From: a virus | Lineage: Duplodnaviria > Caudoviricetes | DNA length: 64,000 nt | Virus record (IMG/VR): IMGVR_UViG_3300009183_000045 | Reading direction: 5' to 3' (one strand) | Notes under the pieces: model-generated | Seen by the model: the letters and a program-made list of their open reading frames with translations, nothing else | What the model was told of the DNA's origin: nothing | Database searches by the model: none | Translations under genes and position numbers: made by a program | Part shown: positions 49,822 to 64,000 of the stretch, one piece after another | Position numbering within the stretch: position 1 is the first letter of the stretch | Layout: every line of letters begins with the position of its first letter

Positions 49822-49829
49822 CTATAAAT
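49822..49829 (+). promoter_or_regulatory. T4 consensus late promoter TATAAATA
   Basis: Exact consensus 7 nt upstream of ATG 49837. Confidence 0.6.
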
Positions 49830-49836
49830 ACCTAAA

Positions 49837-51406: not shown

Positions 51407-54400
51407 ATGGATCCTTTAATCACAAATGGCGAAATAAAAATTACAGACCTATCTAGGGCCCCGATTTTAAGATCTAGTGATCTATTCGTAGCCGCCACCC
51501 ATTTAGACGGTTCTGCTGATATAACCACCCAGGCCATATCCTCTTGCGTATTGCTTGATTATGTTCTCTCACACGGTCCCTATAATTTTGGAGCCAATTT
51601 ATCCAGTATAGGAGTCCACACCAATCCAACTCTCGATGGATGTTTTGTTTGTGATATTAATGCCAAACATTACAGTATTATTCCCAGCAACCCAGCATGG
51701 CCTCAATCTCAAAGCCAACCTGAAGCACCTAATTGCACAACTGATTCTTACTATTCTAACATAGGAGGAGGAACTGGTAATGTGGTATGGGGTACAGAAT
51801 CCACCATCGGCGGCGGTTGCTATAATACGGTAATGGACAGTAATTCTGTTATAGCCGGTGGTAAAAATAATATAATAAATTGCTGTGAATCCTCAATAGG
51901 TGGCGGCGGTAATAATATATCATGTGGAATATACACCACTATTGGAGGAGGAAATTGCAACGTAGCAAATCAAGAAGCTAGCACCATAGCCGGTGGTAAA
52001 CTCAACCTGATTACAACTCCAGAATTGACTAATATTACATACAGAGGAGGAGTTATTTCTGGGGGCACTAATAACGCTCTTTCTGGATGTTATGGATTTA
52101 TTGGCGGCGGATTTCATAATGATTCCACCGGCAACCACTCCGTTATAGTTGCTGGGGAATGTAACAATATAGATTCACACCACAGCTTTATCGGTGGTGG
52201 AGAATTTAATAATATTGCATCTGGTAATTGCAGTGTTATAATAGGAGGAGGTTCCAACATTATATCCGGCGGCGCCTCTATATTAATAGGAGGAACTCAC
52301 AATAATATTAATGGAATTTACTCCGTTGTAAATGGTGGCTATACTAATTCTATAACTGGTGAATATTCTTATATAGGCACCGGAGATCATAATCATATCT
52401 CTGGGAACAATTCTTCTGTAGTGGCAGGTGTTTGCAACTTTATTGCAAGTGATCATTCTTTTATAGGAACCGGTCTGTGTAATTCTGCCATTCAAACCCA
52501 TGCTTCAGTTCTTAATGGCAGGTGCAACAATTCATTGGGTGAGTTTTCGGCAATTCTTAATGGGCAGAATAATGTTGCTTTAGGATCTAACTCAACTGTT
52601 CTTAACGGGTGTGTTAATACTGCATCCGGAAATTGTAGTTTAATTGGTGGCGGCTGCTATAACATAGCATCTAATGCATATTCAACTATTCTAGGGGGTC
52701 ATCATAACTCAGCAAGTGCTGTACATTCTTTTATAGCTGGTGGAAGCTATAATAGCAGTAATTCCTATAACAATACTTTTATATTAGGATCAACTATAAG
52801 TGCCACCAGGGTTGATTTTACTTACGTAAACAATTTAAGTTCAGGAAATGAAATATATGCAGCCAACAATGTTTGTAGTATTAATCAATGTGCCACAGAT
52901 TGCATAGGTTCGGGTAACAACATATGTGCCACTAATACTATATGTGGAAATTATATATGTGGAAGATCTTGTGTAAGCACCCCTCGTTCATTTTCTTCTA
53001 TTTGTGCATCAACCCCTTTAATCAGTTCTCAGTATGCATATATCTCAGAAAAGTTGTATGGCAATATAATATATGCTAACAAGTGTGTACACACCACAGA
53101 TATAGAATCTTCCACTATAACCAATATAGGCACTCTTACAAATGTGGGCCAACTTACAAGTGTTGGGTCCATTTGCAATTACGGAGCATTTAACAACACT
53201 GGCACCATGTGCAATACAGGATATTTCCACAATGAAGGAACTATCTGCAACACCACTGGGTCTATATGCAGTAATAGTGATATAGTGGTGGGTACTACAG
53301 GAAGATTCTTATCGGGCGGTCAAGATTTATTAGAATTGTTTAATTCTTACACAGCTGGATCGGGGTTTTATAAAACCCCTTATGTGGTTCAATTTATAGG
53401 AGATGGTGTCACTACAAAATTTAGTGATTCAAATTTTCCCAGCATAAATCCAAATAATTTTTTAATTTCTATAGCGGGTTTAATTCAAAGACCTTATATA
53501 GATTTTACCAGCAATTTATCCAACAAAGGATCTGTGGTATTTTCTTCACCTCCACCAGCTGGGCAATTAATTAATATATACGCCAATCAAAGTAGTGAAG
53601 TGGGTAAGAGTATTGTTGGATTTTATAATCCTCAATATACAACCTTCATTGCGGACGGTACCTCCTTGGATTACTCTATTCCGAGTGAAGTATATAATGG
53701 CACAGACCCTAATGGATATTTGGTTTCTGTGACTGGATTGGTCCAAAGACCCACTACAGACTTTACAGTGTTAAGTGCTAATGATGGCTTAAATGGCATT
53801 ATACATTTTGTAGCCCCTCCACCCTTAAATGGAGCAGTAACCATACATTCATTTAAATTTTCTACAATTTCAATTTTTAATTCCATATTTAATTATCTCT
53901 CAGCTAGTAATTTTAATATTCCCATATCTTCATTTACCGCGCCTGGAATTACAGCTGCTCATATAGTAGCAACTTCTGATATATATACTCCTTTTATAAA
54001 TGCCACTCGTATAGCGGGTTCTACTGTCAGCGGAAATCTTACCATTACAGGTAATTTATCCACTTTAGGGACTACGACCTTCGTGGGTTCTATAATATCA
54101 AACACTAGTGCTTTGAGTGTGATAAATTACGGACCTTCTCCAGCACTGTGGGTGGGTCAATATAGTACAGCTGGGGACATAGCATCCTTTTATGACTTAG
54201 ACCAACAAAGAGAGGTGTTGCATGTAGGAGGCATTAACGGTATTAACCCAAATGTTGGTATTTTAACTTCCACTCCCAATAAAACATTAACTGTAGTGGG
54301 AGAAATTAGTGCCACCGGAAGTCTTTTCTCTTCAGGAAACCTTAATGTAACCGGTTCGGGTATTAATTACATAAACGGCAATGTTGGATTAGGCACTTTA

Positions 54401-56131
54401 ACTCCTCGCAGTAAATTGGATCTTAATGCCGGAGTTATAGCCGGAGTTGCTAATATTAGAGGGGTTTCTAATTCTGGAGCTTATTCTATATGGGGTGGTT
54501 TAGGGACAGATGGAGCTATAGATGGAGGTTATGTACAATTGTATGGTAGTGCTCACACTGGTTATCCAAATTTATTATTATTTGGAAACTCTTCTTCCAA
54601 TGAAACAATGCGCATTGCTTCAAACGGCAATGTAGGAATAAACGATACTGCTCCCTCTGAAAAGCTATCAGTCACTGGTAATATTAGAGCCACAGGCACC
54701 CTCAACATAGGAGGTACCAGCTTACTCCATGGCCCGTTATGGTTGGGTAGACAAGACGCTTCATTGGAAGGAGGACAATTAACTTTTGCCAAAGCATTAG
54801 ATAATACAGAAGCTTGGACCATTGATGTTTTCGGAAATGATGCATCTCCTCGTTTAAGATTTTTTACTTCTAACGAAAAGATGACCATTTTAAACAATGG
54901 CAAAGTTGGAATAGGAACCGCTGCTCCTACTAGAACATTAGAAGTAAACGGAGATTTCCAAGCAACTAACATTTATGGATCTTTAAATGTAAATCAAATA
55001 GCCGGGACTCTTTTAACCTCTCAAGGCGGAACAGGCGGCGCCACCGCTTCAGCGGGTGCAAAGAATTTATTAGACGGGATAGGCACTGGTACATCTGGTT
55101 ATGTTTTAAAAACAGGAGGTGCTGGAAATTATTATTGGGCAGCAGAAACGGGAGCCACCGTCCAAGTAGGAACTCTTATAAATTCTACTCGGGCGGCATG
55201 GACGGCCACGGCCTCTCAAACTGTATTCACGGCCCCTTCTTATACAACCGGAGCCAATCAATTAAGAGTATATGTTAATGGCGTTCGCCAAACCACCAAT
55301 GATTACGCAGAAACATCTACAACTTCTTTTACATTAACAGTTGGTTGTAATGCTGGAGATTATGTTTTAGCAGAGGTGGATGGATATTATACATATCCAA
55401 ACATAGCGTCTGCAGTAGTGTTTAGCCCCACAGGCAATGTCGCTGCTATAAATGTTCAATCTGCAATAGCAGAGCTAGATACAGAAAAATTTGATAAAAC
55501 TGGGGGACCTATTTCCGGGGATGTAACAATGTCTGCTGCTAAAATAACCTTAGCTGCAGGAACTACCACTAAACCGCCTTTAGTGTTTTCATCTGGTGCA
55601 ACCCTTAGTAGTTTATTGGCTGGCGCCGTGGAATGGGACGGTTCTAAACTATATGTCACATATACTGCGGGCCCTACAAGAAAAACAGTGGCCACAGAAG
55701 ATTATGTAACCACGGCCTTAGGATCTTATGCCCCTAAAGCAGCTCCTGCTTTCACAGGAGCTTGCCAAATTGGTGTAAGTGGAACTAATGGTAGTCTTTT
55801 AGTTTACGGCGACATAAATGCCACAGGCGATGTAATTGCTGCTTATGCCCCCTCAGATATAAGACTTAAATCTAACATAGTTCCTATATCCGATGCGTTA
55901 AACAAAATTGATAAAATTTCTGGTGTTGAATTTATATGGAATAATAAACAGCAACTTTATAAAGGCAAGGATGTGGGAGTTATTGCCCAGGAAATAGAAA
56001 AAGTCTTACCCGAAGTGGTAGCCGTCAGACATGATGGATATAATGGGGTAAAATATGAAAAAATTGTGGCTCTATTAATTGAAGGTATTAAAGAATTAAG
56101 AAAAGAAGTAGAGGAGTTAAAAAGAAAGTAA
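51407..56131 (+). CDS. Long tail fibre with GG..N repeats, Ig-like modules and C-terminal S74 intramolecular chaperone
   Basis: IKITDL N-terminus; ~20 S.I.GG..N repeats; GNVGIG motifs; SDIRLKSNI...GVIAQEIEKVLPEVV...VKYEKIVALLIEGIKEL. Confidence 0.88.
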   Translation: MDPLITNGEIKITDLSRAPILRSSDLFVAATHLDGSADITTQAISSCVLLDYVLSHGPYNFGANLSSIGVHTNPTLDGCFVCDINAKHYSIIPSNPAWPQSQSQPEAPNCTTDSYYSNIGGGTGNVVWGTESTIGGGCYNTVMDSNSVIAGGKNNIINCCESSIGGGGNNISCGIYTTIGGGNCNVANQEASTIAGGKLNLITTPELTNITYRGGVISGGTNNALSGCYGFIGGGFHNDSTGNHSVIVAGECNNIDSHHSFIGGGEFNNIASGNCSVIIGGGSNIISGGASILIGGTHNNINGIYSVVNGGYTNSITGEYSYIGTGDHNHISGNNSSVVAGVCNFIASDHSFIGTGLCNSAIQTHASVLNGRCNNSLGEFSAILNGQNNVALGSNSTVLNGCVNTASGNCSLIGGGCYNIASNAYSTILGGHHNSASAVHSFIAGGSYNSSNSYNNTFILGSTISATRVDFTYVNNLSSGNEIYAANNVCSINQCATDCIGSGNNICATNTICGNYICGRSCVSTPRSFSSICASTPLISSQYAYISEKLYGNIIYANKCVHTTDIESSTITNIGTLTNVGQLTSVGSICNYGAFNNTGTMCNTGYFHNEGTICNTTGSICSNSDIVVGTTGRFLSGGQDLLELFNSYTAGSGFYKTPYVVQFIGDGVTTKFSDSNFPSINPNNFLISIAGLIQRPYIDFTSNLSNKGSVVFSSPPPAGQLINIYANQSSEVGKSIVGFYNPQYTTFIADGTSLDYSIPSEVYNGTDPNGYLVSVTGLVQRPTTDFTVLSANDGLNGIIHFVAPPPLNGAVTIHSFKFSTISIFNSIFNYLSASNFNIPISSFTAPGITAAHIVATSDIYTPFINATRIAGSTVSGNLTITGNLSTLGTTTFVGSIISNTSALSVINYGPSPALWVGQYSTAGDIASFYDLDQQREVLHVGGINGINPNVGILTSTPNKTLTVVGEISATGSLFSSGNLNVTGSGINYINGNVGLGTLTPRSKLDLNAGVIAGVANIRGVSNSGAYSIWGGLGTDGAIDGGYVQLYGSAHTGYPNLLLFGNSSSNETMRIASNGNVGINDTAPSEKLSVTGNIRATGTLNIGGTSLLHGPLWLGRQDASLEGGQLTFAKALDNTEAWTIDVFGNDASPRLRFFTSNEKMTILNNGKVGIGTAAPTRTLEVNGDFQATNIYGSLNVNQIAGTLLTSQGGTGGATASAGAKNLLDGIGTGTSGYVLKTGGAGNYYWAAETGATVQVGTLINSTRAAWTATASQTVFTAPSYTTGANQLRVYVNGVRQTTNDYAETSTTSFTLTVGCNAGDYVLAEVDGYYTYPNIASAVVFSPTGNVAAINVQSAIAELDTEKFDKTGGPISGDVTMSAAKITLAAGTTTKPPLVFSSGATLSSLLAGAVEWDGSKLYVTYTAGPTRKTVATEDYVTTALGSYAPKAAPAFTGACQIGVSGTNGSLLVYGDINATGDVIAAYAPSDIRLKSNIVPISDALNKIDKISGVEFIWNNKQQLYKGKDVGVIAQEIEKVLPEVVAVRHDGYNGVKYEKIVALLIEGIKELRKEVEELKRK

Positions 56132-56146
56132 TAAATTTATTAAATT

Positions 56147-56758
56147 ATGACAAAAGTTAAAAGTTCAACATTAGATTTAACAAATCTTTCAGCAATAGCC
56201 GCCGCCACCGGCGGAGCCACCTACACAGGCGCTTGGACCCCTGGGAGCGGTGGAACTTTTGTTTCTACTTCTTGTTCTGGAAATGCAGCAACCGCTAGTG
56301 CTTGTACCGGCAACGCAGCTACAGCTACAAATGCAACCGCATTGCGCAATGCTGCCACCACCGCATACATACTCGCAGCTCTTTCCGGTGCTAGTACGAT
56401 AGTACAAACTGACACATACGGGTCCATAACAGCCACCGGAGACGTAACCGCATATTCAGATGCTAAACTTAAAGAAAATGTAAAAACTATTGACAATGCT
56501 TTGGATAAAACATTAAAATTAAGAGGAGTCTATTATAATAAAATAGATGATCAAACGAAGCGTCAAAATGTTGGAGTTATAGCCCAGGAAATTAAAGAAA
56601 TTTTACCAGAAGTGGTACATTGCGTTGATTCAGAGAATGAAGATTCTATTTTATCAGTTAGTTACGGCAACATTGTTGCTCTTCTTATAGAAGCTATTAA
56701 AGAACAACAAAAACAAATAGAAGATTTAAAGAAGGTTGTTACTAAGTTAAATAAATAA
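56147..56758 (+). CDS. Short fibre protein with S74 intramolecular chaperone
   Basis: GNAATA repeats; [17 protein letters not shown]...GVIAQEI..ILPEVV...[19 protein letters not shown]. Confidence 0.88.
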
Positions 56759-56759
56759 T

Positions 56760-58637
56760 ATGAGTTTCGTCAAAGCCACTTTAAATATGTTTGAAATTCC
56801 ACTCAGTGGAGTTTTAGCCGGTAAAAACTCTGTAGTCAATCATGATAACAGTTTCATTATCGGATCGAACATGATGTCAACATCAGCAAATGTTTTATTT
56901 GTTAATAGTTTAAGTGCTTCTGGCAAAATTTTTGGAGTTACTGATGGTAGCATGGTTAACTCTGTAGGAGGAAAAAGAGGCAATGTAACCTTAGAAATTC
57001 CGGATGTTAATTACCTGGAAACAACTTTACAAAGTATTGAGCAAACTCTTTATTCTAAATTAGATTTAGTAGGAGGTACCATTGTTGGAGATCTTACAGT
57101 CACGGGAGGAATATCTGCACAGGGAGGAGTTCATTTTGCCAATACCATATTTTCCACAACCTCTTCTTTAAGTGTGGTCAACACTGGGTACGGCCCCGCT
57201 CTTTATGTATATCAAGGCAAAGGATCTGGAGATGTCGCTTCTTTCTATGACGGTGACGGAATAGAAGTTTTACATATAGGAAACGCAAAAAATACAGCAG
57301 GGCTGGATCCATCTGGGGTCATTGGGATTAAAACCTCTAATCCCAACAAAACTTTAACGGTTGTGGGTGAAATCAGTGCTACCTCAGATATTACCACTTC
57401 TGGTAAATTTAAAGGAGATGGAACTTCTTTGACATTGCCTTTGGCAACCTCTGGTCTTGCAGGTGTATTTAAATTAGGAGCTGGGTTATCTTTGGATCCG
57501 AACGGCGCTTTGAATATTGCCAATATTTTCACCGGTGCCACTGGAGCTACGGGTCCCATTGGAGCCTCTGGAGCCACTGGACCTCTAGGAATTACTGGAG
57601 CTACGGGACCTTCCGGGCCTATCGGATTTTCGGGCTCTCCTGGTCAAACAGGGACCCAAGGATCTACTGGAGCCACTGGATTGGGCGCTACTGGAGCCAC
57701 TGGCATTCAAGGTCCAAACGGCGCCACTGGACCCTTTGGTGCCACCGGCCTTGGAGCCACCGGCGCCACAGGCATTCAAGGCCCGAGTGGGGCGACAGGT
57801 CCTCAGGGTATTCAAGGAACTCCTGGAGGAGCCACTGGGCTTCAGGGTCCTACAGGAGCCACGGGATTAGGAGCCACCGGAGTTCAGGGGCCAGCCGGCA
57901 TTCAAGGGGCCACTGGAATAGGAGTTCAGGGACTTAGTGGTAATCCAGGAGCTACTGGAGTCATGGGTCCCGCCGGGCCTGTAGGTGCTACTGGAATAGG
58001 TGCCACCGGACTTCAGGGCACTATAGGAATACAAGGAATTCAAGGTCCAAGCGGGGCCACGGGTATTCAGGGTGCCACTGGTTTAGGAGCAACCGGCATT
58101 CAAGGACCCACAGGTGCCACGGGAATACAGGGTGTCTCTGGTTTATCTGGTAGTCTAGGACAAACTGGACCCACAGGTGCTACTGGTATTCAGGGAGCCA
58201 CAGGAATACAAGGTGCTACTGGTATTCAGGGAGCCACTGGTGCAAACTTAGACAGTACTAAACTTCCTCTAGCAGGTGGAACCATGACTGGTGGGATAAA
58301 TCTTCTCTACGTCACAGAAACATATGCAGTCCCTTCCATTGTATCCAATGCAGTTGCTTTTGATTTAACATCTGCCTCTTTATTTAGATTAACTCTAAAT
58401 TCTACAGTCACTATAACCTTTACAAACACCCCAACTGCTCCAAAAGTTTATAGTTTTGCTTTACAGACTATAGGAGACGGAACTGCTAGAGCCATTACTT
58501 GGCCCACTACTATTAAATGGCCAACAGGAGTTGCACCCACCGTAACATCTACTCTTAATAAAGTAGATACATACAGCTTTCTCACATCAGATGGTGGCTC
58601 CAACTGGTATGGATATATAGGTTATCAGGGACATTAA
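56760..58637 (+). CDS. Collagen-like tail fibre
   Basis: About 237 aa of Gly-X-Y (GATG/GIQG), flanked by globular fibre domains. Confidence 0.85.
57534..58244 (+). repeat. Collagen Gly-X-Y coding repeat
   Basis: Repeated ggagccactgg/attcaggg units with occasional G-X-G interruptions. Confidence 0.9.
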
Positions 58638-58639
58638 TT

Positions 58640-59125
58640 ATGAAATTATATTGCTTAGTAGAAGACAGAAAAGATGAAGAAGGTAATGTTTATAAGAGTA
58701 TAAACCAAGGTCCCACAGAATTGCCGCAAAACACTTCATTTGTTTCTAATTTAAATTCTTTAGACGAAACCTCTCTTAAAGAATTGGGATGGTTGCCTTA
58801 TAAAAAGCAATCAGAAGACAAAGAAGTTTATGTTTCTTCTAAATATGAAATTTTAGAAGACAAAGTAATTGAAATTATAGAAACCAGAAATAAAACCGAA
58901 GAAGAATTAAACATTGATAAAGAAAAGAGAGAATATTATCTATGGCAAGATTTGAGAAAACAAAGAGATCAGTTGTTGTCTGAATCTGATAAAATGGTCA
59001 TGGTGGACAAGTGGGAAAAAATGAATGAATTTGAAAGAGAAAGGATATCCACATATCGTCAATCTTTAAGAGACTTGCCAGATTTAACCAAAGATCCTGC
59101 CGAAGTAAACTTTCCAGTTCTTTAA
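58640..59125 (+). CDS. Tail fibre assembly chaperone-like protein
   Basis: W..LRKQRDQLLSESD......D......YRQSLRDLP...P....FP motif. Confidence 0.8.
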   Translation: MKLYCLVEDRKDEEGNVYKSINQGPTELPQNTSFVSNLNSLDETSLKELGWLPYKKQSEDKEVYVSSKYEILEDKVIEIIETRNKTEEELNIDKEKREYYLWQDLRKQRDQLLSESDKMVMVDKWEKMNEFERERISTYRQSLRDLPDLTKDPAEVNFPVL

Positions 59126-59129
59126 TTTT

Positions 59130-60899
59130 ATGTCTTTCTTATTTGCCCAGCGCAGGAGTTTTTCGAATTCTTTGTCCGTCAAAGGCCTCGGAACATTTAA
59201 TAGAATTGCAGCGACCGACGGCTGTTCTTTGGCTCTTAAAAGTGATGGCACATTAATTGGATGGGGAATTGGCCCTCACCTTATCATTCCTTCTAGTGCT
59301 AATTCAGGGGTGGTGGACATTAAAGTAAGCCAGCAAGGTTGTTTGGCTCTTAAAAGTGATGGTTCAGTGATAGGATGGGGCACTAATTGGTATGGTGAAT
59401 TCACCATTCCTATTGGAGTTAGTTCTAAAGTGGTGAGTATTTCCCTGGGCGGCCATCATTCTCTAGCTCTTAAAAGTGATGGCACTGTAGTTGGCTGGGG
59501 GGATAATAGTTACGGCCAAATTACTATTCCTTCTAGTGCCACTTCTGGTGTGGTGGCTATTGCTTGTGGGTATTACCATTCTCTAGCTCTTAAAAGTGAT
59601 GGATCTGTAATTGCCTGGGGATTTAATAATTTTGGTCAAACCACTATTCCTATTAGTGCTAATTCTAATGTGGTTGCTATTGCTGCAGGTGGCTTCCATT
59701 CTCTAGCTCTTAAAAGTAATGGCACTGTAGTTGGCTGGGGGAGCTATGTTTATGGAGAGCTCGCCATTACAGATTCTAATGTGGTGGCTATTGCTGCTAG
59801 TGGGAATGTTTCCTTGGCTCTTAAAAGTGATGGCTCTGTAATTAGTGCCGGACAATGGGCGTTCTACAACGCCAATACCAATCAAATGTATTATGTCGGG
59901 GTCACCAATCCCACTAGTGTTAGTTCTGGCGTGGTTACTATTGATACCTCTAGTCGAAGTTGTTTAGCCATTAAAAGTGATGGCTCTATAATTGGTTGGG
60001 GGGATAATAGTGTCGGCCAAATTACTATTTCTACTACAACCCTTTCTAGAGCAGCCTGTGCAAAAAGAATTGCTGCTGGCCGCACCCATTCTCTAGCTCT
60101 TAAAAGTGATGGATCTGTAATTGCCTGGGGATTGAATAATTTTGGTCAAACCACTATTCCTTCTAGTGCCACTTCTGGTGTGGTGGCTATTGCTGGCGGC
60201 TGGCGCCATTCTCTAGCTCTTAAAAGTGACGGCTCTGTAATTGCCTGGGGAGATAATTTTTATGACCAAACTACTATTCCTTCTAGTGCCACCTCTGGTG
60301 TGGTGGCTATTGATTGTGGGGATTACCATTCTCTAGCTCTTAAAAGTGACGGCTCTGTAATTGCCTGGGGATATGGTGTTGACGGTCAAACCACCATTCC
60401 ATCCAGTGCCACTTCTGGTGTGGTGGCTATTGCTTGTGCCCAATATTATTCTCTAGCCCTTAAAAGTGACGGCTCTGTAATCTCCTGGGGGCGTAATAGT
60501 GTCGGTCAAGCCCCCATTCCATCCAGTGCTGCTTCTGGTGTGGTGGCTATTGCTTGTGGCGTCGAGTATTCCATGGCCCTTAAAAGTGACGGCTCTGTGA
60601 TTGGTTGGGGAATCAATATTTACGGGACGTCACCCGTTATTCCATCCAGCGCGCTTTCTGGTGTAGTGGCTATTGCTTGTGGTGGCAACCATTATCTAGC
60701 ACTTAAAAGTGACGGCTCTGTAATTGCCTGGGGATATAATAATTATGGTCAAACCACCATTCCATCCAGCGCACTTTCTGGTGTAGTGGCTATTGCTGGC
60801 GGCAGCGAGCATTCCATGGCCCTTAAAAGTGACGGCTCTGTAATTGCCTGGGGAAATAATAGTAGTGGTCAAACCACTGTTCCAGCATCTTTAACTTAA
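59130..60899 (+). CDS. BLIP-II/RCC1-like protein with 14 repeats (two 7-bladed beta-propellers); candidate receptor-binding adhesin
   Basis: Fourteen ~40-aa repeats SGVVAIA.G..HSLALKSDGSVIAWG.N..GQTTIP; follows the fibre chaperone. Confidence 0.85.
   Translation: MSFLFAQRRSFSNSLSVKGLGTFNRIAATDGCSLALKSDGTLIGWGIGPHLIIPSSANSGVVDIKVSQQGCLALKSDGSVIGWGTNWYGEFTIPIGVSSKVVSISLGGHHSLALKSDGTVVGWGDNSYGQITIPSSATSGVVAIACGYYHSLALKSDGSVIAWGFNNFGQTTIPISANSNVVAIAAGGFHSLALKSNGTVVGWGSYVYGELAITDSNVVAIAASGNVSLALKSDGSVISAGQWAFYNANTNQMYYVGVTNPTSVSSGVVTIDTSSRSCLAIKSDGSIIGWGDNSVGQITISTTTLSRAACAKRIAAGRTHSLALKSDGSVIAWGLNNFGQTTIPSSATSGVVAIAGGWRHSLALKSDGSVIAWGDNFYDQTTIPSSATSGVVAIDCGDYHSLALKSDGSVIAWGYGVDGQTTIPSSATSGVVAIACAQYYSLALKSDGSVISWGRNSVGQAPIPSSAASGVVAIACGVEYSMALKSDGSVIGWGINIYGTSPVIPSSALSGVVAIACGGNHYLALKSDGSVIAWGYNNYGQTTIPSSALSGVVAIAGGSEHSMALKSDGSVIAWGNNSSGQTTVPASLT
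59220..60890 (+). repeat. Tandem ~120-bp coding repeats
   Basis: ctctagctcttaaaagtgat units recur at 59461, 59581, 59701, 60091, 60211, 60331, 60451 and onward. Confidence 0.92.
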
Positions 60900-60947: not shown

Positions 60948-63900
60948 ATGTCCGTTTCTTTTAATTTTCCAGACCTCAACACTATTCAATGGCTCCCAGT
61001 TAATTATAAAACTGTAGGCCAAGATTATGTTACTAAATTTACTACTTTAAAATTTCAAGACGGAGTAACTTTTGGGTTGAATGAATGTTTAAAGAATTTT
61101 AAAGATGCATCATTTAATAAGAGCACTGGAATGTTCTTAACTGACATTAACACTAGTTCTAACATTTTAGAAGATGCTAGTAACCCCGACGATATTAGCA
61201 ATCTGGCTCAAATTTTTACACCCATATGCACAGTTGATTCACTAGACAATAAATTAATAACTCTATCTACAACCTATGAATTGTCTGCCACATCTCGTGT
61301 GGCTATGGATTTATTTGGTAAAAATTCTAATGCTCAATCCTCAGATAATTTTAATTTTATTTTCTCTAAAGATTTCACACATGTATTAAACAACGCAGAA
61401 GAAAATTTTGTTTCGGTAGAAACCACTTATTATAGCAAAAACACTCAGGAAGTTCCTCATCAATTTTTATTAACTTGGAATAATATTAATAATAAATTAA
61501 TTTTTCAACCAAAAATACATCCAGATAGTAATAGTCAGAAATTTTCTTATCTATTGTCCGATGATGGTATTTGTTTATTTAAACCGGATACAAACTTTTC
61601 TATACTGGTAGATAAGGATTCAAGCTCAGATACTTTTGTTTTTAAAAACTATACACCGACTCCGAATGAAGCCCTTCCTCTTTCTTCCTTTTTAAAATTT
61701 GTTTCTTATAAAATCCAGCAACTCTCTCATTCAGATATTGTAGACAGCCATTTGACTCGGTATGCAGTTAACAAATTAGACTATCAACAAGAAATAGTCC
61801 CAGACCCAGAAATTAATTCTGAGCCATATTCTCAAAATTTCTTAGGCATTTTTCCAGTAGAGAAACCCGTAATTGAAGATGATAGAGCTACCTACAATTT
61901 ACAAATACACGGATTAAAAAATTATCAAACCCCTGAATACAATTACTCTTTTAATAAAAATTATGTAGATGGATACAATGGAGTTCATCGAATATATGAT
62001 CACATATTTTCCGGATCCAATCAAAAAGAAGGTCTTCTTAATGTCCATTTGGGGTATACCGCAAATACTTCAGAGTTAACATTTTTAAGAGACCAAGAAA
62101 CCCCATTTAATTTTGCCTCTACTTCTTTTAGAATGCCTTTGAGTAGTGCGGGCCTTATAGAAGACGGAGCCATTCCTGGTCATCATCCGTTTGTTTCTGA
62201 TCGCATATACTTTCGCCAAATGGATTATAATGGACAAATACAGGGAGTGCCCCAACCTCCTAGTATAAACAAATTCACCAATACATGGTTATGTGCTTGG
62301 TTATCTGGGTCTAATAGCAATGGTTCATTATGGATGGATAGATTTTATAATGCAGCTTATTATACTTTAGACCAAGCCCTGACTTCAAACAATTTAATTT
62401 ATCATGATAAAATAGACCCTTCTCAGAGTTACATAATAGATGTTCCTTCTACTATGTTTTTAGAACCAGGAGCCTTTTATAGATACTATCACAGTGGTAT
62501 TAAGACTAGTCAACAATATGTGCCTTTTATAGACGGAACCTTCAACTCTCCGCTTGGATCAAAGGTACTGCATATAAGTTCTTGGAATTCTAATCCTTTA
62601 CAGGACAATTCTTTATACCAAAACAATGGTTTAATACATCCTGTGGGTTTTTTGAACAAAGAATCTGATTATTGGGATTTGACTGGAGATAATCATGTTG
62701 TGTTTCCATCTAAAAGTCAATTATTAGAAGAACATCACTTTACAACCTCTTTATGGGTCAAAGTGTCTAACTGGTCTAATATTCAAGGGAAACAGATATT
62801 CGGTAATTTCTATGACAGTGGATATGGCCTACTCAATGATACATCTTTAACAGCACCTTTATTATCCTTTATAGATAAATCTACCGGACAACTTTATAAT
62901 TTAAATTATAAATTTAAAATTGTAAACACTTCTGATACTCCTATAGATGCCTTAACCAAAAATATTATCACCGTCAGGCTTCCAGATTTTACTTATTGGG
63001 TATTTGATGCCAATAACGGAACTGGTATTAAATTTGACATTGAAGGAAGGAAATTAAAATCCACCACTCAAAGATTTTTTAGAATAGCTCAAATAGAAGT
63101 AGATGAAAATTCAAATCTACATATATTTCAACCTTACAAAAAAAGAGTAATTGTTTTAAATCAACATGGTGTTTTATTAAACAAACTTACTTATCACATT
63201 AAAAAAAGAGCCTCAGTTCGAGTGGAGCTTTTTAAATATCAAAATTTTTCTAAAACATCTGTTATTGAAATTTTTGGAAATGCTTCCGTGATTGACAATG
63301 AAGGACACATCTGGCAAGTGTTAGGCAATAACCTGTACAAGTCAACTTACAATGCAATTTCAGATGTTCATGGGTCACCGACATTTTTTGCGACTCTGGG
63401 AGTTACCCAACAAATAACCTGTGACTCTTATAACAATATATGGATATTACACGATCAAGATAAAATATCCATTCTTAAAGCAAATCAAAAATCTTTTCAG
63501 ACCTTTAGAATGGGCAAACGCAAAGGCCTTCCTGAAGACCCTTGTTTAAAAAATTCTGTTAGGTTTCGATATCTTAACTTCGTCAAAACACCAGAAACTA
63601 GTACAGTAGATTGTGAGGTTCAAAAATATAAAGATTTAGCAATATTAATAGATGTAAGAGACAACGAATTAATGTTATTAGATTTAAACGGAGATCTCCT
63701 CACTCGTTTAGACATGACCACATTGTATGGATTAAAATCTTCCGTTCCAGAATTTTGTGCGGATGGTGATTTTACTGGATATCAATTATTGAGAAGATTT
63801 AAGAGCAATAGTAAAAACATAGGTTGGAAATTTTATATAGCAGAAAAGACTGGTAGATACCCAGAAACATTATCTTTAAAATATGACAGTTCTTTACTGC

Positions 63901-64000
63901 ATCCCGGGTGGCATCATTTTACTTTTGTTTTTGATGCAGAAAATGGAGTTGCCTCTTATTATATAGATTCTGTTTTAGTGGATCAAACCCCAGTAGACAA
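60948..64000 (+). CDS. Large structural protein with LamG/concanavalin-like domains (partial, runs off the window; absent from the ORF track)
   Basis: ATG 60948 after ATAAATA; frame spot-checked at both ends; FTTSLWVKV and PGWHHFTFVFDAENGVASYYIDS LamG-type motifs. Confidence 0.7.
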   Translation, partial: MSVSFNFPDLNTIQWLPVNYKTVGQDYVTKFTTLKFQDGVTFGLNECLKNFKDASFNKSTGMFLTDINTSSNILEDASNPDDISNLAQIFTPICTVDSLDNKLITLSTTYELSATSRVAMDLFGKNSNAQSSDNFNFIFSKDFTHVLNNAEENFVSVETTYYSKNTQEVPHQFLLTWNNINNKLIFQPKIHPDSNSQKFSYLLSDDGICLFKPDTNFSILVDKDSSSDTFVFKNYTPTPNEALPLSSFLKFVSYKIQQLSHSDIVDSHLTRYAVNKLDYQQEIVPDPEINSEPYSQNFLGIFPVEKPVIEDDRATYNLQIHGLKNYQTPEYNYSFNKNYVDGYNGVHRIYDHIFSGSNQKEGLLNVHLGYTANTSELTFLRDQETPFNFASTSFRMPLSSAGLIEDGAIPGHHPFVSDRIYFRQMDYNGQIQGVPQPPSINKFTNTWLCAWLSGSNSNGSLWMDRFYNAAYYTLDQALTSNNLIYHDKIDPSQSYIIDVPSTMFLEPGAFYRYYHSGIKTSQQYVPFIDGTFNSPLGSKVLHISSWNSNPLQDNSLYQNNGLIHPVGFLNKESDYWDLTGDNHVVFPSKSQLLEEHHFTTSLWVKVSNWSNIQGKQIFGNFYDSGYGLLNDTSLTAPLLSFIDKSTGQLYNLNYKFKIVNTSDTPIDALTKNIITVRLPDFTYWVFDANNGTGIKFDIEGRKLKSTTQRFFRIAQIEVDENSNLHIFQPYKKRVIVLNQHGVLLNKLTYHIKKRASVRVELFKYQNFSKTSVIEIFGNASVIDNEGHIWQVLGNNLYKSTYNAISDVHGSPTFFATLGVTQQITCDSYNNIWILHDQDKISILKANQKSFQTFRMGKRKGLPEDPCLKNSVRFRYLNFVKTPETSTVDCEVQKYKDLAILIDVRDNELMLLDLNGDLLTRLDMTTLYGLKSSVPEFCADGDFTGYQLLRRFKSNSKNIGWKFYIAEKTGRYPETLSLKYDSSLLHPGWHHFTFVFDAENGVASYYIDSVLVDQTPVD

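What the first reader, a model, noticed from the sequence alone, without database searches (positions are those of the whole stretch)
59130..60899. Double BLIP-II-like propeller with constant framework and two hypervariable loops per blade, an antibody-like adhesin scaffold
Seen: exactly 14 repeats (2 x 7); blades 1 and 8 both start with RIAA, implying duplication of a whole propeller. At DNA level the ~120-bp units are near-identical except for two short windows: after WG (DNSY, FNNF, SYVY, LNNF, DNFY, YGVD, RNSV, INIY, YNNY, NNSS) and before HS (YY, GF, RT, WR, DY, QY, VE, GN, SE). Established: the 40-aa repeat closely resembles beta-lactamase inhibitory protein II of Streptomyces, which binds its protein targets through such aromatic apical loops. 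Inference: its position after fibre + chaperone suggests a gp38-like tip adhesin that binds a protein receptor, or alternatively an inhibitor of a host penicillin-binding/serine enzyme. Homogenised frameworks imply gene conversion or recombination shuffling of loops.
Basis: partly seen in the sequence, partly recalled or inferred. Interest (0 to 1): 0.75.

Follow-up and report, generated by a model that had tools for sequence, protein, structure and literature searches.

The report
Double BLIP-II-type propeller beside phage fibre
An uncultured lake phage encodes, right behind a tail-fibre gene and its chaperone, a protein made of two seven-bladed rings whose exposed loop residues change between strains. 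It is most likely a host-binding part of the virus particle, of a kind already seen in other phages but never tested.

Summary
The ORF 59130-60899 (+, 589 aa) is real and holds exactly 14 RCC1-type repeats. AlphaFold2 models them as two seven-bladed propellers with three-stranded blades. The closest solved protein is BLIP-II (phmmer E 1.7e-69).

Two claims are overstated. The units are 54-85% identical in DNA, not near-identical. Blade similarities show no whole-propeller duplication.

The scaffold is held by purifying selection (pN 0.10, pS 0.39). The loops are nearly unconstrained (pN 0.49, pS 0.55).

A related strain in another lake metagenome differs mostly by clustered, nonsynonymous codon changes at the loop positions. 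Close pairs of other phage contigs show the same short-patch editing.

The order fibre tip, Tfa-like chaperone, RCC1 protein recurs in cyanophage BUCT-ZZ01 and in several IMG/VR contigs; at least 12 of those contigs carry the tip next to an RCC1 gene.

Best reading (0.6): a virion-borne host-binding propeller. Its attachment point and ligand are unknown. No DGR template lies in the window.

This scan found the same kind before on other DNA. It is a new member of a known, untested kind.

The parts
59130..60899 (+). Gene for the 589-aa double RCC1/BLIP-II-type propeller protein (P0001)
   Evidence: ORF. Pfam RCC1_2 and WD40_RLD. BLIP-II is the best solved relative.
59130..59195 (+). N-terminal tail, residues 1-22, predicted disordered. 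No shared tag with other ORFs of the window.
   Evidence: pLDDT 28-32. tblastn of the first 24 residues finds nothing significant in the window. Three residues differ in the related strain of run X4.
59196..60035 (+). Propeller 1, blades 1-7 (residues 23-302). The blades are more divergent, and blade 6 has a 10-residue hairpin insertion.
   Evidence: Repeat segmentation. Three strands per blade in the AlphaFold2 model.
60036..60056 (+). Inter-propeller linker, residues 303-309
   Evidence: pLDDT below 50 and a short helix at 302-306.
60057..60896 (+). Propeller 2, blades 8-14 (residues 310-589), the more homogeneous set (63-85% DNA identity)
   Evidence: TRF array 60069-60884, period 120, 6.8 copies.
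58640..59125 (+). Tail-fibre assembly chaperone (161 aa). Its stop codon lies 4 nt before the propeller gene's ATG.
   Evidence: Pfam Phage_tail_APC E 1.5e-11. phrog_4912 'tail fiber assembly' E 1.8e-13.
56760..58637 (+). Collagen-like tail fibre (625 aa). Its C-terminal tip domain (58245-58634) travels with RCC1 genes in other phages.
   Evidence: Pfam Collagen E 8.9e-28. The tip matches phrog_9017 'tail fiber protein' E 7e-19. Tip homologues lie next to RCC1 genes in BUCT-ZZ01 and in at least 12 IMG/VR loci.
56147..56758 (+). Small protein (203 aa) that ends in a Peptidase_S74 intramolecular chaperone domain
   Evidence: Pfam PF13884 E 3e-16. It matches the C-termini of PHROG long-tail-fibre families.
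51407..56131 (+). Large tail fibre (1574 aa) with a C-terminal Peptidase_S74 domain
   Evidence: Pfam PF13884 E 2.3e-15.
60948..63998 (+). Large downstream protein (at least 1017 aa, runs off the window) with a Laminin_G_3 / ConA-like domain. Same strand, 48-nt gap.
   Evidence: Pfam PF13385 E 1.1e-6. The same domain is fused to RCC1 propellers in P0027 and P0099.
49823..49830 (+). TATAAATA, a candidate T4-type late promoter 7 nt before the first gene of the fibre row (49837). Inference only.
   Evidence: Three of the four matches in the window lie just upstream of ORF starts, but the count is not above chance.

Best explanation
The gene encodes a virion-associated host-binding protein of an uncultured freshwater T4-like myovirus. 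It consists of two seven-bladed BLIP-II-type (short RCC1_2) beta-propellers in one chain.

Each blade keeps a constant three-stranded scaffold. Each exposes two short loops on one face of its ring: the two residues before the conserved His, and the residues after Trp-Gly. The 14 blades therefore give two aromatic-rich binding faces.

These loop residues evolve almost freely and are re-edited between strains. Part of that editing is short recombination patches copied from other blades. That is what is expected of a surface that must follow a changing host-envelope ligand.

The gene is probably expressed late with the fibre genes, as part of a recurrent cassette: fibre tip, Tfa-like chaperone, RCC1 protein.

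Shown here: the fold family, the position of the variable residues, the pattern of selection, strain-level variation and the synteny.

Inferred: presence in the virion, host binding, the late promoter.

Unknown: how the protein docks on the particle, and whether the ligand is protein or glycan.
For: Fold and family:
- Pfam RCC1_2 and WD40_RLD.
- AlphaFold2 mean pLDDT 88, 14 blades of three strands, linker at 303-309.
- BLIP-II is the best solved match.

Binding face:
- The BLIP-II interface residues G49, N50, N51, W53, Y73, F74, L91, N112, D131, W152, D167, D170, Y191, D206, Y208, F209, I229, F230, E268, W269 and N304 (PMC10817188) map to repeat positions 8/9 and 25-28 through the alignment. 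T57 falls just outside them, at about position 32.
- Phe, Trp and Tyr are about 8-fold enriched at these positions in P0001 (p 5e-9).

Selection within the gene:
- Framework pS 0.39 and pN 0.10; loops pS 0.55 and pN 0.49.

Between strains:
- Contigs of run X4 run from the chaperone gene into the propeller gene, so they are the same locus. They differ by 5% in the gene and about 2% in the flanks.
- Of the listed differences, 23 of 25 changed codons are nonsynonymous, against 3 of 8 in the chaperone gene (Fisher p 0.004).
- 13 of the 22 changed codons inside repeats fall on six loop positions (binomial p 2.5e-6).
- Two patches equal other blades over 33 and 27 nt.

Other phage contigs:
- L006 and L007 differ by 15 nt in 14.5 kb. 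All 15 lie in three patches of one RCC1 gene; the four residue changes are all at loop positions and the other changes are synonymous.
- L011 against L058: 6 of 25 loop residues differ, against 5 of 347 others.

Context:
- The gene lies 4 nt after a Phage_tail_APC chaperone, inside a row of fibre genes.
- The same order occurs in the cultured cyanophage BUCT-ZZ01, whose fibre tip is homologous.
- Tip, Tfa or both lie beside RCC1 genes in many IMG/VR loci.
- RCC1 propellers are fused in front of a Peptidase_S74 fibre chaperone domain in P0026 and P0096.
- RCC1-like proteins of jumbo coliphage phAPEC6 were detected in virions by mass spectrometry (PMC7247149).
Against: - There is no direct evidence that this protein is in the particle or binds anything.
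- It has no recognisable anchor or trimerisation domain, only a 22-residue disordered N-terminus with no shared tag in the window.
- The strain comparison rests on Logan contigs of one run. The list is truncated: 40 of 138 differences are shown, and only 14 of 35 for the longer contig.
- The same variable positions are also variable in bacterial homologues (x positions of the consensus). Loop variability among blades is therefore a family property, not a feature special to this phage.
- Fast-evolving loops would also fit a protein that binds a host defence or other intracellular target.
Confidence: 0.6

Rival explanations
1. The protein is a virion or assembly accessory of the fibre apparatus that does not bind the host. 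Examples would be a spacer, a sensor, a whisker-like decoration, or a platform that holds the large downstream LamG protein. The propellers would then serve as protein-protein docking rings inside the particle.
For: RCC1-like domains are generally protein-interaction platforms; the solved matches include RCC1, HERC2 and RPGR. The gene lies between a fibre-chaperone pair and a giant LamG protein. LamG_3 and RCC1 are fused in P0027 and P0099.
Against: A purely internal docking surface should co-evolve slowly. Here the exposed loop residues are the fastest-changing part between strains, while the flanking structural genes stay 98% identical. Close IMG/VR pairs change only the loops.
Confidence: 0.15
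2. The protein is not part of the virion. It would be a BLIP-II-like tight-binding inhibitor or decoy that acts on a host protein, either a defence component in the cytoplasm or an envelope enzyme after lysis. Its loops would be in an arms race with that target.
For: About 40-50% identity to BLIP-II repeats, with the same interface positions. Rapid nonsynonymous change is also typical of counter-defence proteins.
Against: - There is no convincing export signal. The N-terminal RR-x-F resembles a Tat motif, but the following stretch contains a Lys and runs into the first strand of blade 1 (strand 23-28), and the Arg pair is changed in the X4 strain (R8N). A periplasmic target during infection is therefore unlikely.
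- The gene sits in a co-directional row of late structural genes.
- In other phages it is linked to, or fused with, fibre parts.
Confidence: 0.12
3. The loops are diversified by a dedicated mutagenic system (a diversity-generating retroelement or similar), not by ordinary recombination and selection.
For: Multi-nucleotide codon changes confined to a few positions on a constant scaffold in a tail-fibre-module protein. Several variant codons are AAY.
Against: - blastn finds no copy of any repeat unit outside the gene in the 64-kb window, so there is no template repeat nearby.
- The conserved Asn codon at position 26 (AAT) is not mutated.
- The patches carry neighbouring synonymous changes, and some equal other blades over 27-33 nt. 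That is the mark of templated recombination.
- Substitution types in X4 show no single-base bias.
- Limit: a reverse transcriptase was not searched for exhaustively, and the genome beyond the window could not be read.
Confidence: 0.05

Closest known systems
BLIP-II, beta-lactamase inhibitory protein II of Streptomyces exfoliatus (PDB 1jtd, 3qhy, 3qi0, 9t9p)
   Same: The same short repeat of about 40 residues. A seven-bladed propeller with three-stranded blades. About 40-50% identity over aligned blades. The residues that bind TEM-1 and Bla1 occupy the same repeat positions that vary here.
   Different: BLIP-II is a single secreted propeller with a 40-residue signal peptide (PMC10817188). This protein is a double propeller with no evident signal, encoded in a phage fibre gene row. 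Its target is unknown and nothing points to a beta-lactamase.
RCC1-like 'DNA condensation' proteins of Rak2-like jumbo coliphages (phAPEC6 gp003, 005, 007, 009, 549, 551)
   Same: Phage-encoded RCC1-type propellers of untested function. They were detected in mature virions by mass spectrometry (PMC7247149).
   Different: Those are single propellers of about 40 kDa in tandem paralogue arrays. Here there is one gene with two propellers directly behind a fibre and its chaperone. No other RCC1 gene lies in the window.
Synechococcus phage BUCT-ZZ01 protein UTS52180.1 (annotated 'BNR repeat domain protein')
   Same: A T4-like freshwater phage with the same gene order: tail fibre with a homologous tip (35% identity, E 5e-9), then a Tfa-like protein of 166 aa, then a multi-propeller RCC1 protein of 700 aa.
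   Different: It has classical RCC1 repeats of about 50 residues and is only about 30% identical. Its function is likewise untested.
gp38 adhesins of T2, T6 and S16-type phages
   Same: As I recall them, these are separate small proteins encoded beside the distal fibre gene, with hypervariable loops on a conserved scaffold that set host range. The likeness is in working principle only.
   Different: There is no sequence or fold relation; Pfam finds only RCC1 families. The gene follows the chaperone, not the fibre. Binding to the fibre tip is not shown.
DGR target proteins such as Mtd of Bordetella phage BPP-1
   Same: A tail-fibre-module binding protein with a constant scaffold and a few variable surface positions.
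   Different: The fold differs (C-type lectin against propeller). No template repeat lies in the window. The variation looks recombinational.

Membership tests
Short RCC1_2 / BLIP-II-type beta-propeller (Pfam PF13540, PF25390) | Repeated motif of about 40 residues that scores above the Pfam gathering thresholds | tested here: met
   RCC1_2 376 bits (cut-off 22), 11 stretches. WD40_RLD 430 bits (cut-off 150).
Short RCC1_2 / BLIP-II-type beta-propeller (Pfam PF13540, PF25390) | Seven blades per ring, each of three antiparallel strands | tested here: met
   Prediction only. The AlphaFold2 model has 14 blades with three strands each and a low-confidence linker at 303-309. BLIP-II's three-stranded blade is stated in PMC6121496. 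The relative position of the two rings is uncertain (pTM 0.55).
Short RCC1_2 / BLIP-II-type beta-propeller (Pfam PF13540, PF25390) | Significant sequence and fold similarity to solved BLIP-II | tested here: met
   phmmer E 1.7e-69. Foldseek E 7e-33, probability 1.00, 40-41% identity.
BLIP-II as a functional class (secreted beta-lactamase inhibitor) | N-terminal secretion signal | tested here: not met
   By inspection only; no predictor was available. There is no hydrophobic core. The RR-x-F is followed by a Lys-containing stretch that runs into strand 1 of blade 1, and R8 is not conserved in the X4 strain.
BLIP-II as a functional class (secreted beta-lactamase inhibitor) | Binds and inhibits class A beta-lactamases | not testable with these tools
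   Needs an enzyme inhibition assay with the purified protein.
T4-type gp38 adhesin | Homology to gp38 | tested here: not met
   Pfam and PHROGs return only RCC1 families and two 'tail protein' PHROGs that match through RCC1 repeats.
T4-type gp38 adhesin | Sits on the tip of the distal fibre in the virion | not testable with these tools
   Needs cryo-EM or pull-down.
DGR variable protein | A template repeat near the variable region, with differences confined to template adenines | tested here: not met
   No copy of any repeat unit lies outside the gene in the 64-kb window. The genome beyond the window could not be read.
DGR variable protein | Reverse transcriptase gene in the element | not tested
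   The window's ORFs were not all scanned, and no whole genome is held.
Phage cassette: fibre tip, Tfa-like chaperone, RCC1 protein | An RCC1 gene beside a fibre with the phrog_9017-type tip and a Phage_tail_APC-type chaperone | tested here: met
   Window. BUCT-ZZ01. In L002/L003/L013, L015, L018 and L035 the order is tip, chaperone, RCC1 protein; L026 has the same order but its 197-aa middle ORF matched no family; in L025 and L042 the chaperone-like gene lies downstream; in L048 the tip ORF directly precedes the RCC1 gene.

The most novel reading that the evidence does not exclude
The two propeller faces act as a combinatorial binding library of 28 loops. The library would be re-written in nature by templated short-patch gene conversion, with other blades or other RCC1 genes of the phage population as donors. 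This would be a phage counterpart of immunoglobulin gene conversion that resets host specificity without any dedicated enzyme.
Probability: 0.15. Interest if true: 0.65.

Novelty: new member of a known kind. Interest (0 to 1): 0.4.

Why it matters
RCC1-type propellers are common in phage genomes. Public annotation still calls them 'regulators of chromosome condensation' or 'DNA condensation proteins' (PHROGs files them under nucleotide metabolism).

This case adds a clear example. The variable residues coincide with the experimentally mapped binding face of BLIP-II. The gene sits in a recurrent fibre-chaperone cassette that is also present in a cultured cyanophage. Strains differ almost only at those residues.

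If these propellers are host-recognition modules, they form a large, unrecognised class of receptor-binding proteins. They would be a natural scaffold for engineering binding proteins, and BUCT-ZZ01 offers a tractable system to test this.

The idea is not new within this scan, and the function remains untested. The finding is therefore of moderate interest.

Tried and rejected
- Close relatives of the phage. None in INPHARED by DNA. The chaperone protein found none in IMG/VR or the JGI metagenomes. A 26-nt framework pattern found none either. No whole genome is held. Related alleles could therefore be seen only as Logan contigs.
- Complex prediction with three copies of the fibre tip (residues 496-625) and the whole propeller protein returned 'no answer' (score 0.04). 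This counts neither for nor against binding.
- The contig of run X7 that joins 59144 to 60792 with 57 other letters could mean a replaced allele in another lake. Its short second piece matches a repeat unit at only 83% and the contig ends there. It does not show a deletion.
- Whole-propeller duplication is rejected on the blade similarity matrix.
- A Tat signal in the N-terminus (QRRSF) is rejected, for the reasons given under the second rival.
- The PF08931 (lactophage RBP head) hit on homologue P0103 lies inside an RCC1 repeat with no stretch of its own. It is disregarded.
- Literature hits for 'RCC1' in the prasinovirus and RcGTA papers were strain numbers and locus tags, not the domain.
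- L001, a 64.5% GC bacterial-looking contig with the best-matching RCC1 proteins (63-65% identity), is not a relative of this 35% GC phage. The identity reflects the conserved repeat consensus.
- The BLIP-II papers PMC3173220 and PMC4243995 are not held.
- The model's coordinates cannot be read. Clustering of the loops on one face is therefore inferred from BLIP-II, not measured on the model.
Full report
**Observation.** The ORF 59130..60899 (+) encodes 589 residues. Anchoring on KS[DN]G gives exactly 14 units. Tandem Repeats Finder reports 120-bp arrays at 59423-59741 and 60069-60884 with 73-78% matches. Among nine canonical 40-residue units, positions 8, 9, 25, 27 and 28 hold 5-7 different residues, while positions 4, 13-18, 20, 23-24 and 34 are invariant.

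The DNA claim is overstated. Unit pairs are 54-85% identical. Invariant residues are often written with 2-3 different codons. There is no excess similarity at an offset of seven blades; only blade 1 pairs best with blade 8, at 66%. RIAA therefore marks the start of each ring rather than proving that a finished propeller was duplicated.

**Identity.** Pfam gives RCC1_2 (11 stretches, E 5.8e-116) and the RCC1-like domain WD40_RLD (E 9e-129). An AlphaFold2 model built on 40 homologues has mean pLDDT 88. It shows 14 blades of three strands each, a disordered N-terminus (residues 1-20) and a low-confidence linker at 303-309. This reads as two seven-bladed rings whose mutual orientation is uncertain (pTM 0.55).

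The best solved relative by sequence and by fold is BLIP-II: phmmer E 1.7e-69, and Foldseek E 7e-33 at 40-41% identity. [quoted passage not shown] The family is very large in bacteria. All 8000 scored candidates but 81 matched, and many of the top hits carry Ig-like, LamG or S-layer homology domains.

**The variable windows are the BLIP-II binding face.** PMC10817188 lists the BLIP-II residues that contact TEM-1 and Bla1 and states a 40-residue signal peptide. Chain numbering in the alignment is the precursor numbering minus 39. I inferred this offset by matching G49, N50, N51, W53, Y73 and F74.
- G49, N50, N51, W53, L91, D131, D167, D170, D206, Y208 and F209 fall in the stretch after Trp-Gly (positions 25-28).
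- Y73, F74, N112, W152, Y191, I229, F230, E268, W269 and N304 fall in the two residues before the His position (positions 8-9).
- T57 lies at about position 32.

In P0001 these positions are about 8-fold enriched in Phe, Trp and Tyr (p 5e-9). The same positions are the 'x' positions of the consensus of 40 bacterial homologues. A constant scaffold with variable apical residues is thus a property of the family, not something peculiar to this gene.

**Selection within the gene.** Over the blade pairs compared (blades 1 and 6 excluded because of indels), framework codons show pS 0.39 and pN 0.10. Loop codons show pS 0.55 and pN 0.49. The scaffold is conserved by purifying selection on the protein, and the loops are close to unconstrained. 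The lower pS within blades 3, 4 and 8-14 (0.07-0.5) fits fairly recent blade amplification or some conversion, but not DNA homogenisation.

**Variation between strains.** The stretch occurs in freshwater metagenome runs. Runs X1 and X2 hold it without differences and may be the source samples.

Run X4 holds a related strain. One of its contigs runs from the chaperone gene into the propeller gene, so it is the same locus. Divergence is 5.0-5.1% in the gene (20 of 401 and 35 of 686 letters). It is 2.0% and 1.7% in the flanks (9 of 443 and 3 of 175).

Of the differences listed (the table is truncated):
- 23 of 25 changed codons are nonsynonymous, and many involve two or three changes in one codon. 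In the chaperone gene, 3 of 8 are nonsynonymous (Fisher p 0.004).
- 13 of the 22 changed codons inside repeats hit positions 7, 8, 9, 25, 27 or 28 (binomial p 2.5e-6).
- Two patches equal another blade of the window's gene. The blade 7 loop equals blade 3 over 33 nt, and a blade 3 site equals blade 9 over 27 nt. The other patches have no donor within this gene.

Independent phage contigs behave the same way.
- L006 and L007 differ at 15 nucleotides in 14,575. All lie in one RCC1 gene, in three patches. The four residue changes are all at loop positions, and each of the two longer patches also carries synonymous changes around them.
- L011 against L058 changes 6 of 25 loop residues but only 5 of 347 others.
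- L032 against L046 is identical over about 20 kb except for one RCC1 gene, at 64% identity.

This is the signature of short-tract recombination plus whole-cassette exchange.

**Context.** The window is a T4-like myovirus of about 35% GC. It has a portal, a gp23-type capsid protein, a sheath stabiliser and a baseplate wedge protein. Its nearest capsid relatives are cyanophages, at only 33% identity.

The gene sits in a co-directional row:
- S74 fibre, 51407-56131
- small S74 protein, 56147-56758
- collagen fibre, 56760-58637
- Phage_tail_APC chaperone, 58640-59125
- the propeller gene, 4 nt after the chaperone's stop
- a LamG_3 protein of at least 1017 aa, 48 nt further on

A TATAAATA lies 7 nt before the first gene of the row, at 49823. 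Its role as a late promoter is inference only.

The arrangement recurs.
- In cyanophage BUCT-ZZ01, a tail fibre whose last 100 residues are homologous to this fibre's tip (35% identity, E 5e-9) is followed by a 166-aa APC-like protein and then a 700-aa RCC1 protein.
- Among 77 IMG/VR loci retrieved only by RCC1 similarity, at least 12 carry the same tip domain, and several have the order tip, chaperone, RCC1 protein.
- Of 59 immediate upstream neighbours, 17 are further RCC1 genes, 10 carry DUF4376, 3 are Phage_tail_APC, 3 are S74 and 3 are collagen. Four of five sampled upstream ORFs of this size class (214-228 aa) match phrog_10508 'tail fiber protein'.
- Homologues P0026 and P0096 carry the propeller directly before a C-terminal S74 chaperone domain, the usual place of a fibre's distal domain.
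- In Marinobacter phage PS6 and Clostridioides phage LIBA2945 the RCC1 gene also lies among tail and fibre genes.
- RCC1-like proteins of phAPEC6 were found in virions by mass spectrometry. Their authors guessed a DNA-condensing role and noted that no function is known in prokaryotes (PMC7247149).

**Mechanism and rivals.** The best-supported reading (0.6) is a virion-borne host-binding double propeller. Its two loop faces follow a variable host-surface ligand and are edited by recombination and selection.

Still open are the docking site (no anchor domain, and no shared N-terminal tag in this window) and the ligand.

The rivals are:
- an internal docking platform of the fibre apparatus (0.15)
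- a non-virion BLIP-II-like binder of a host protein (0.12), weakened by the lack of a convincing export signal and by the structural context
- a DGR-type system (0.05), weakened by the absence of any template copy in the window and by the recombinational look of the patches

**Comparison and novelty.** The protein is a member of the short RCC1_2 / BLIP-II-type propeller family by sequence and by predicted fold. It is not shown to be a BLIP-II in function, and it is not a gp38 homologue.

Phage RCC1 propellers are known from annotation and from one virion proteome, but they are functionally untested. Earlier follow-ups of this scan reached the same reading on other phage DNA. Their point about short recombination patches was re-tested here on L006/L007 and on the X4 strain.

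What this case adds:
- two propellers in one chain
- a one-to-one match of the variable positions with BLIP-II's mapped interface
- synteny with a cultured cyanophage that could be used for a test

Verdict: new member of a known kind, interest 0.4.

Noticed in passing
L006:508-1668 versus L007:1364-2524: Two IMG/VR contigs are identical over 14.5 kb except for 15 nucleotides in one RCC1 propeller gene. The differences form three patches. The four residue changes all lie at WG-x or GxxH loop positions, and each of the two longer patches also carries synonymous changes. This is a clean natural example of short-tract loop editing.
   Followed up: partly
L032:11576-12745 versus L046:11576-12736: About 20 kb of two contigs is identical except for one RCC1 propeller gene at 64% identity. 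This looks like whole-cassette replacement at a fixed locus.
   Followed up: no
L001:3482-17003: A 64.5% GC contig with bacterial-looking flanks (ECF sigma factor, Ser/Thr kinase with WD40, Rrf2) carries two Peptidase_S74 fibre-like genes, a 165-aa ORF and three RCC1 proteins, one with LamG_3. No other phage genes are called nearby. It may be a fibre/adhesin cassette or a prophage remnant in a bacterial genome.
   Followed up: partly
L015:3833-15703, L035:3218-15892, L002:2562-8918: In several IMG/VR contigs, the gene after the fibre tip and chaperone is a giant protein (2118, 4224 and more than 3950 aa) that starts with an RCC1 propeller about 15-25 residues from its N-terminus.
   Followed up: no
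window 56147-56758: A 203-aa protein consists of little more than an Ala/Thr/Gly-rich N-terminal part and a Peptidase_S74 intramolecular chaperone domain. It matches the C-termini of long-tail-fibre PHROGs. It may be a very short fibre or a remnant between two full fibres.
   Followed up: no
window 58600-59144 and 60792-60839 (run X7): A contig from another lake keeps the chaperone gene at 97% identity. It diverges 15 nt into the propeller gene and then resembles a repeat unit at only 83%. This may be a different propeller allele at the same locus.
   Followed up: partly
window 12751, 30830, 49823: Three of the four TATAAATA motifs in the window lie just upstream of ORF starts, as T4-type late promoters do. 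The total count is not above chance.
   Followed up: no
PHROGs phrog_16766, phrog_7220, phrog_4219: PHROGs files phage RCC1 propellers under 'DNA, RNA and nucleotide metabolism' as 'regulator of chromosome condensation'. BUCT-ZZ01's copy is annotated 'BNR repeat domain protein'. Both labels look misleading given the gene context.
   Followed up: partly
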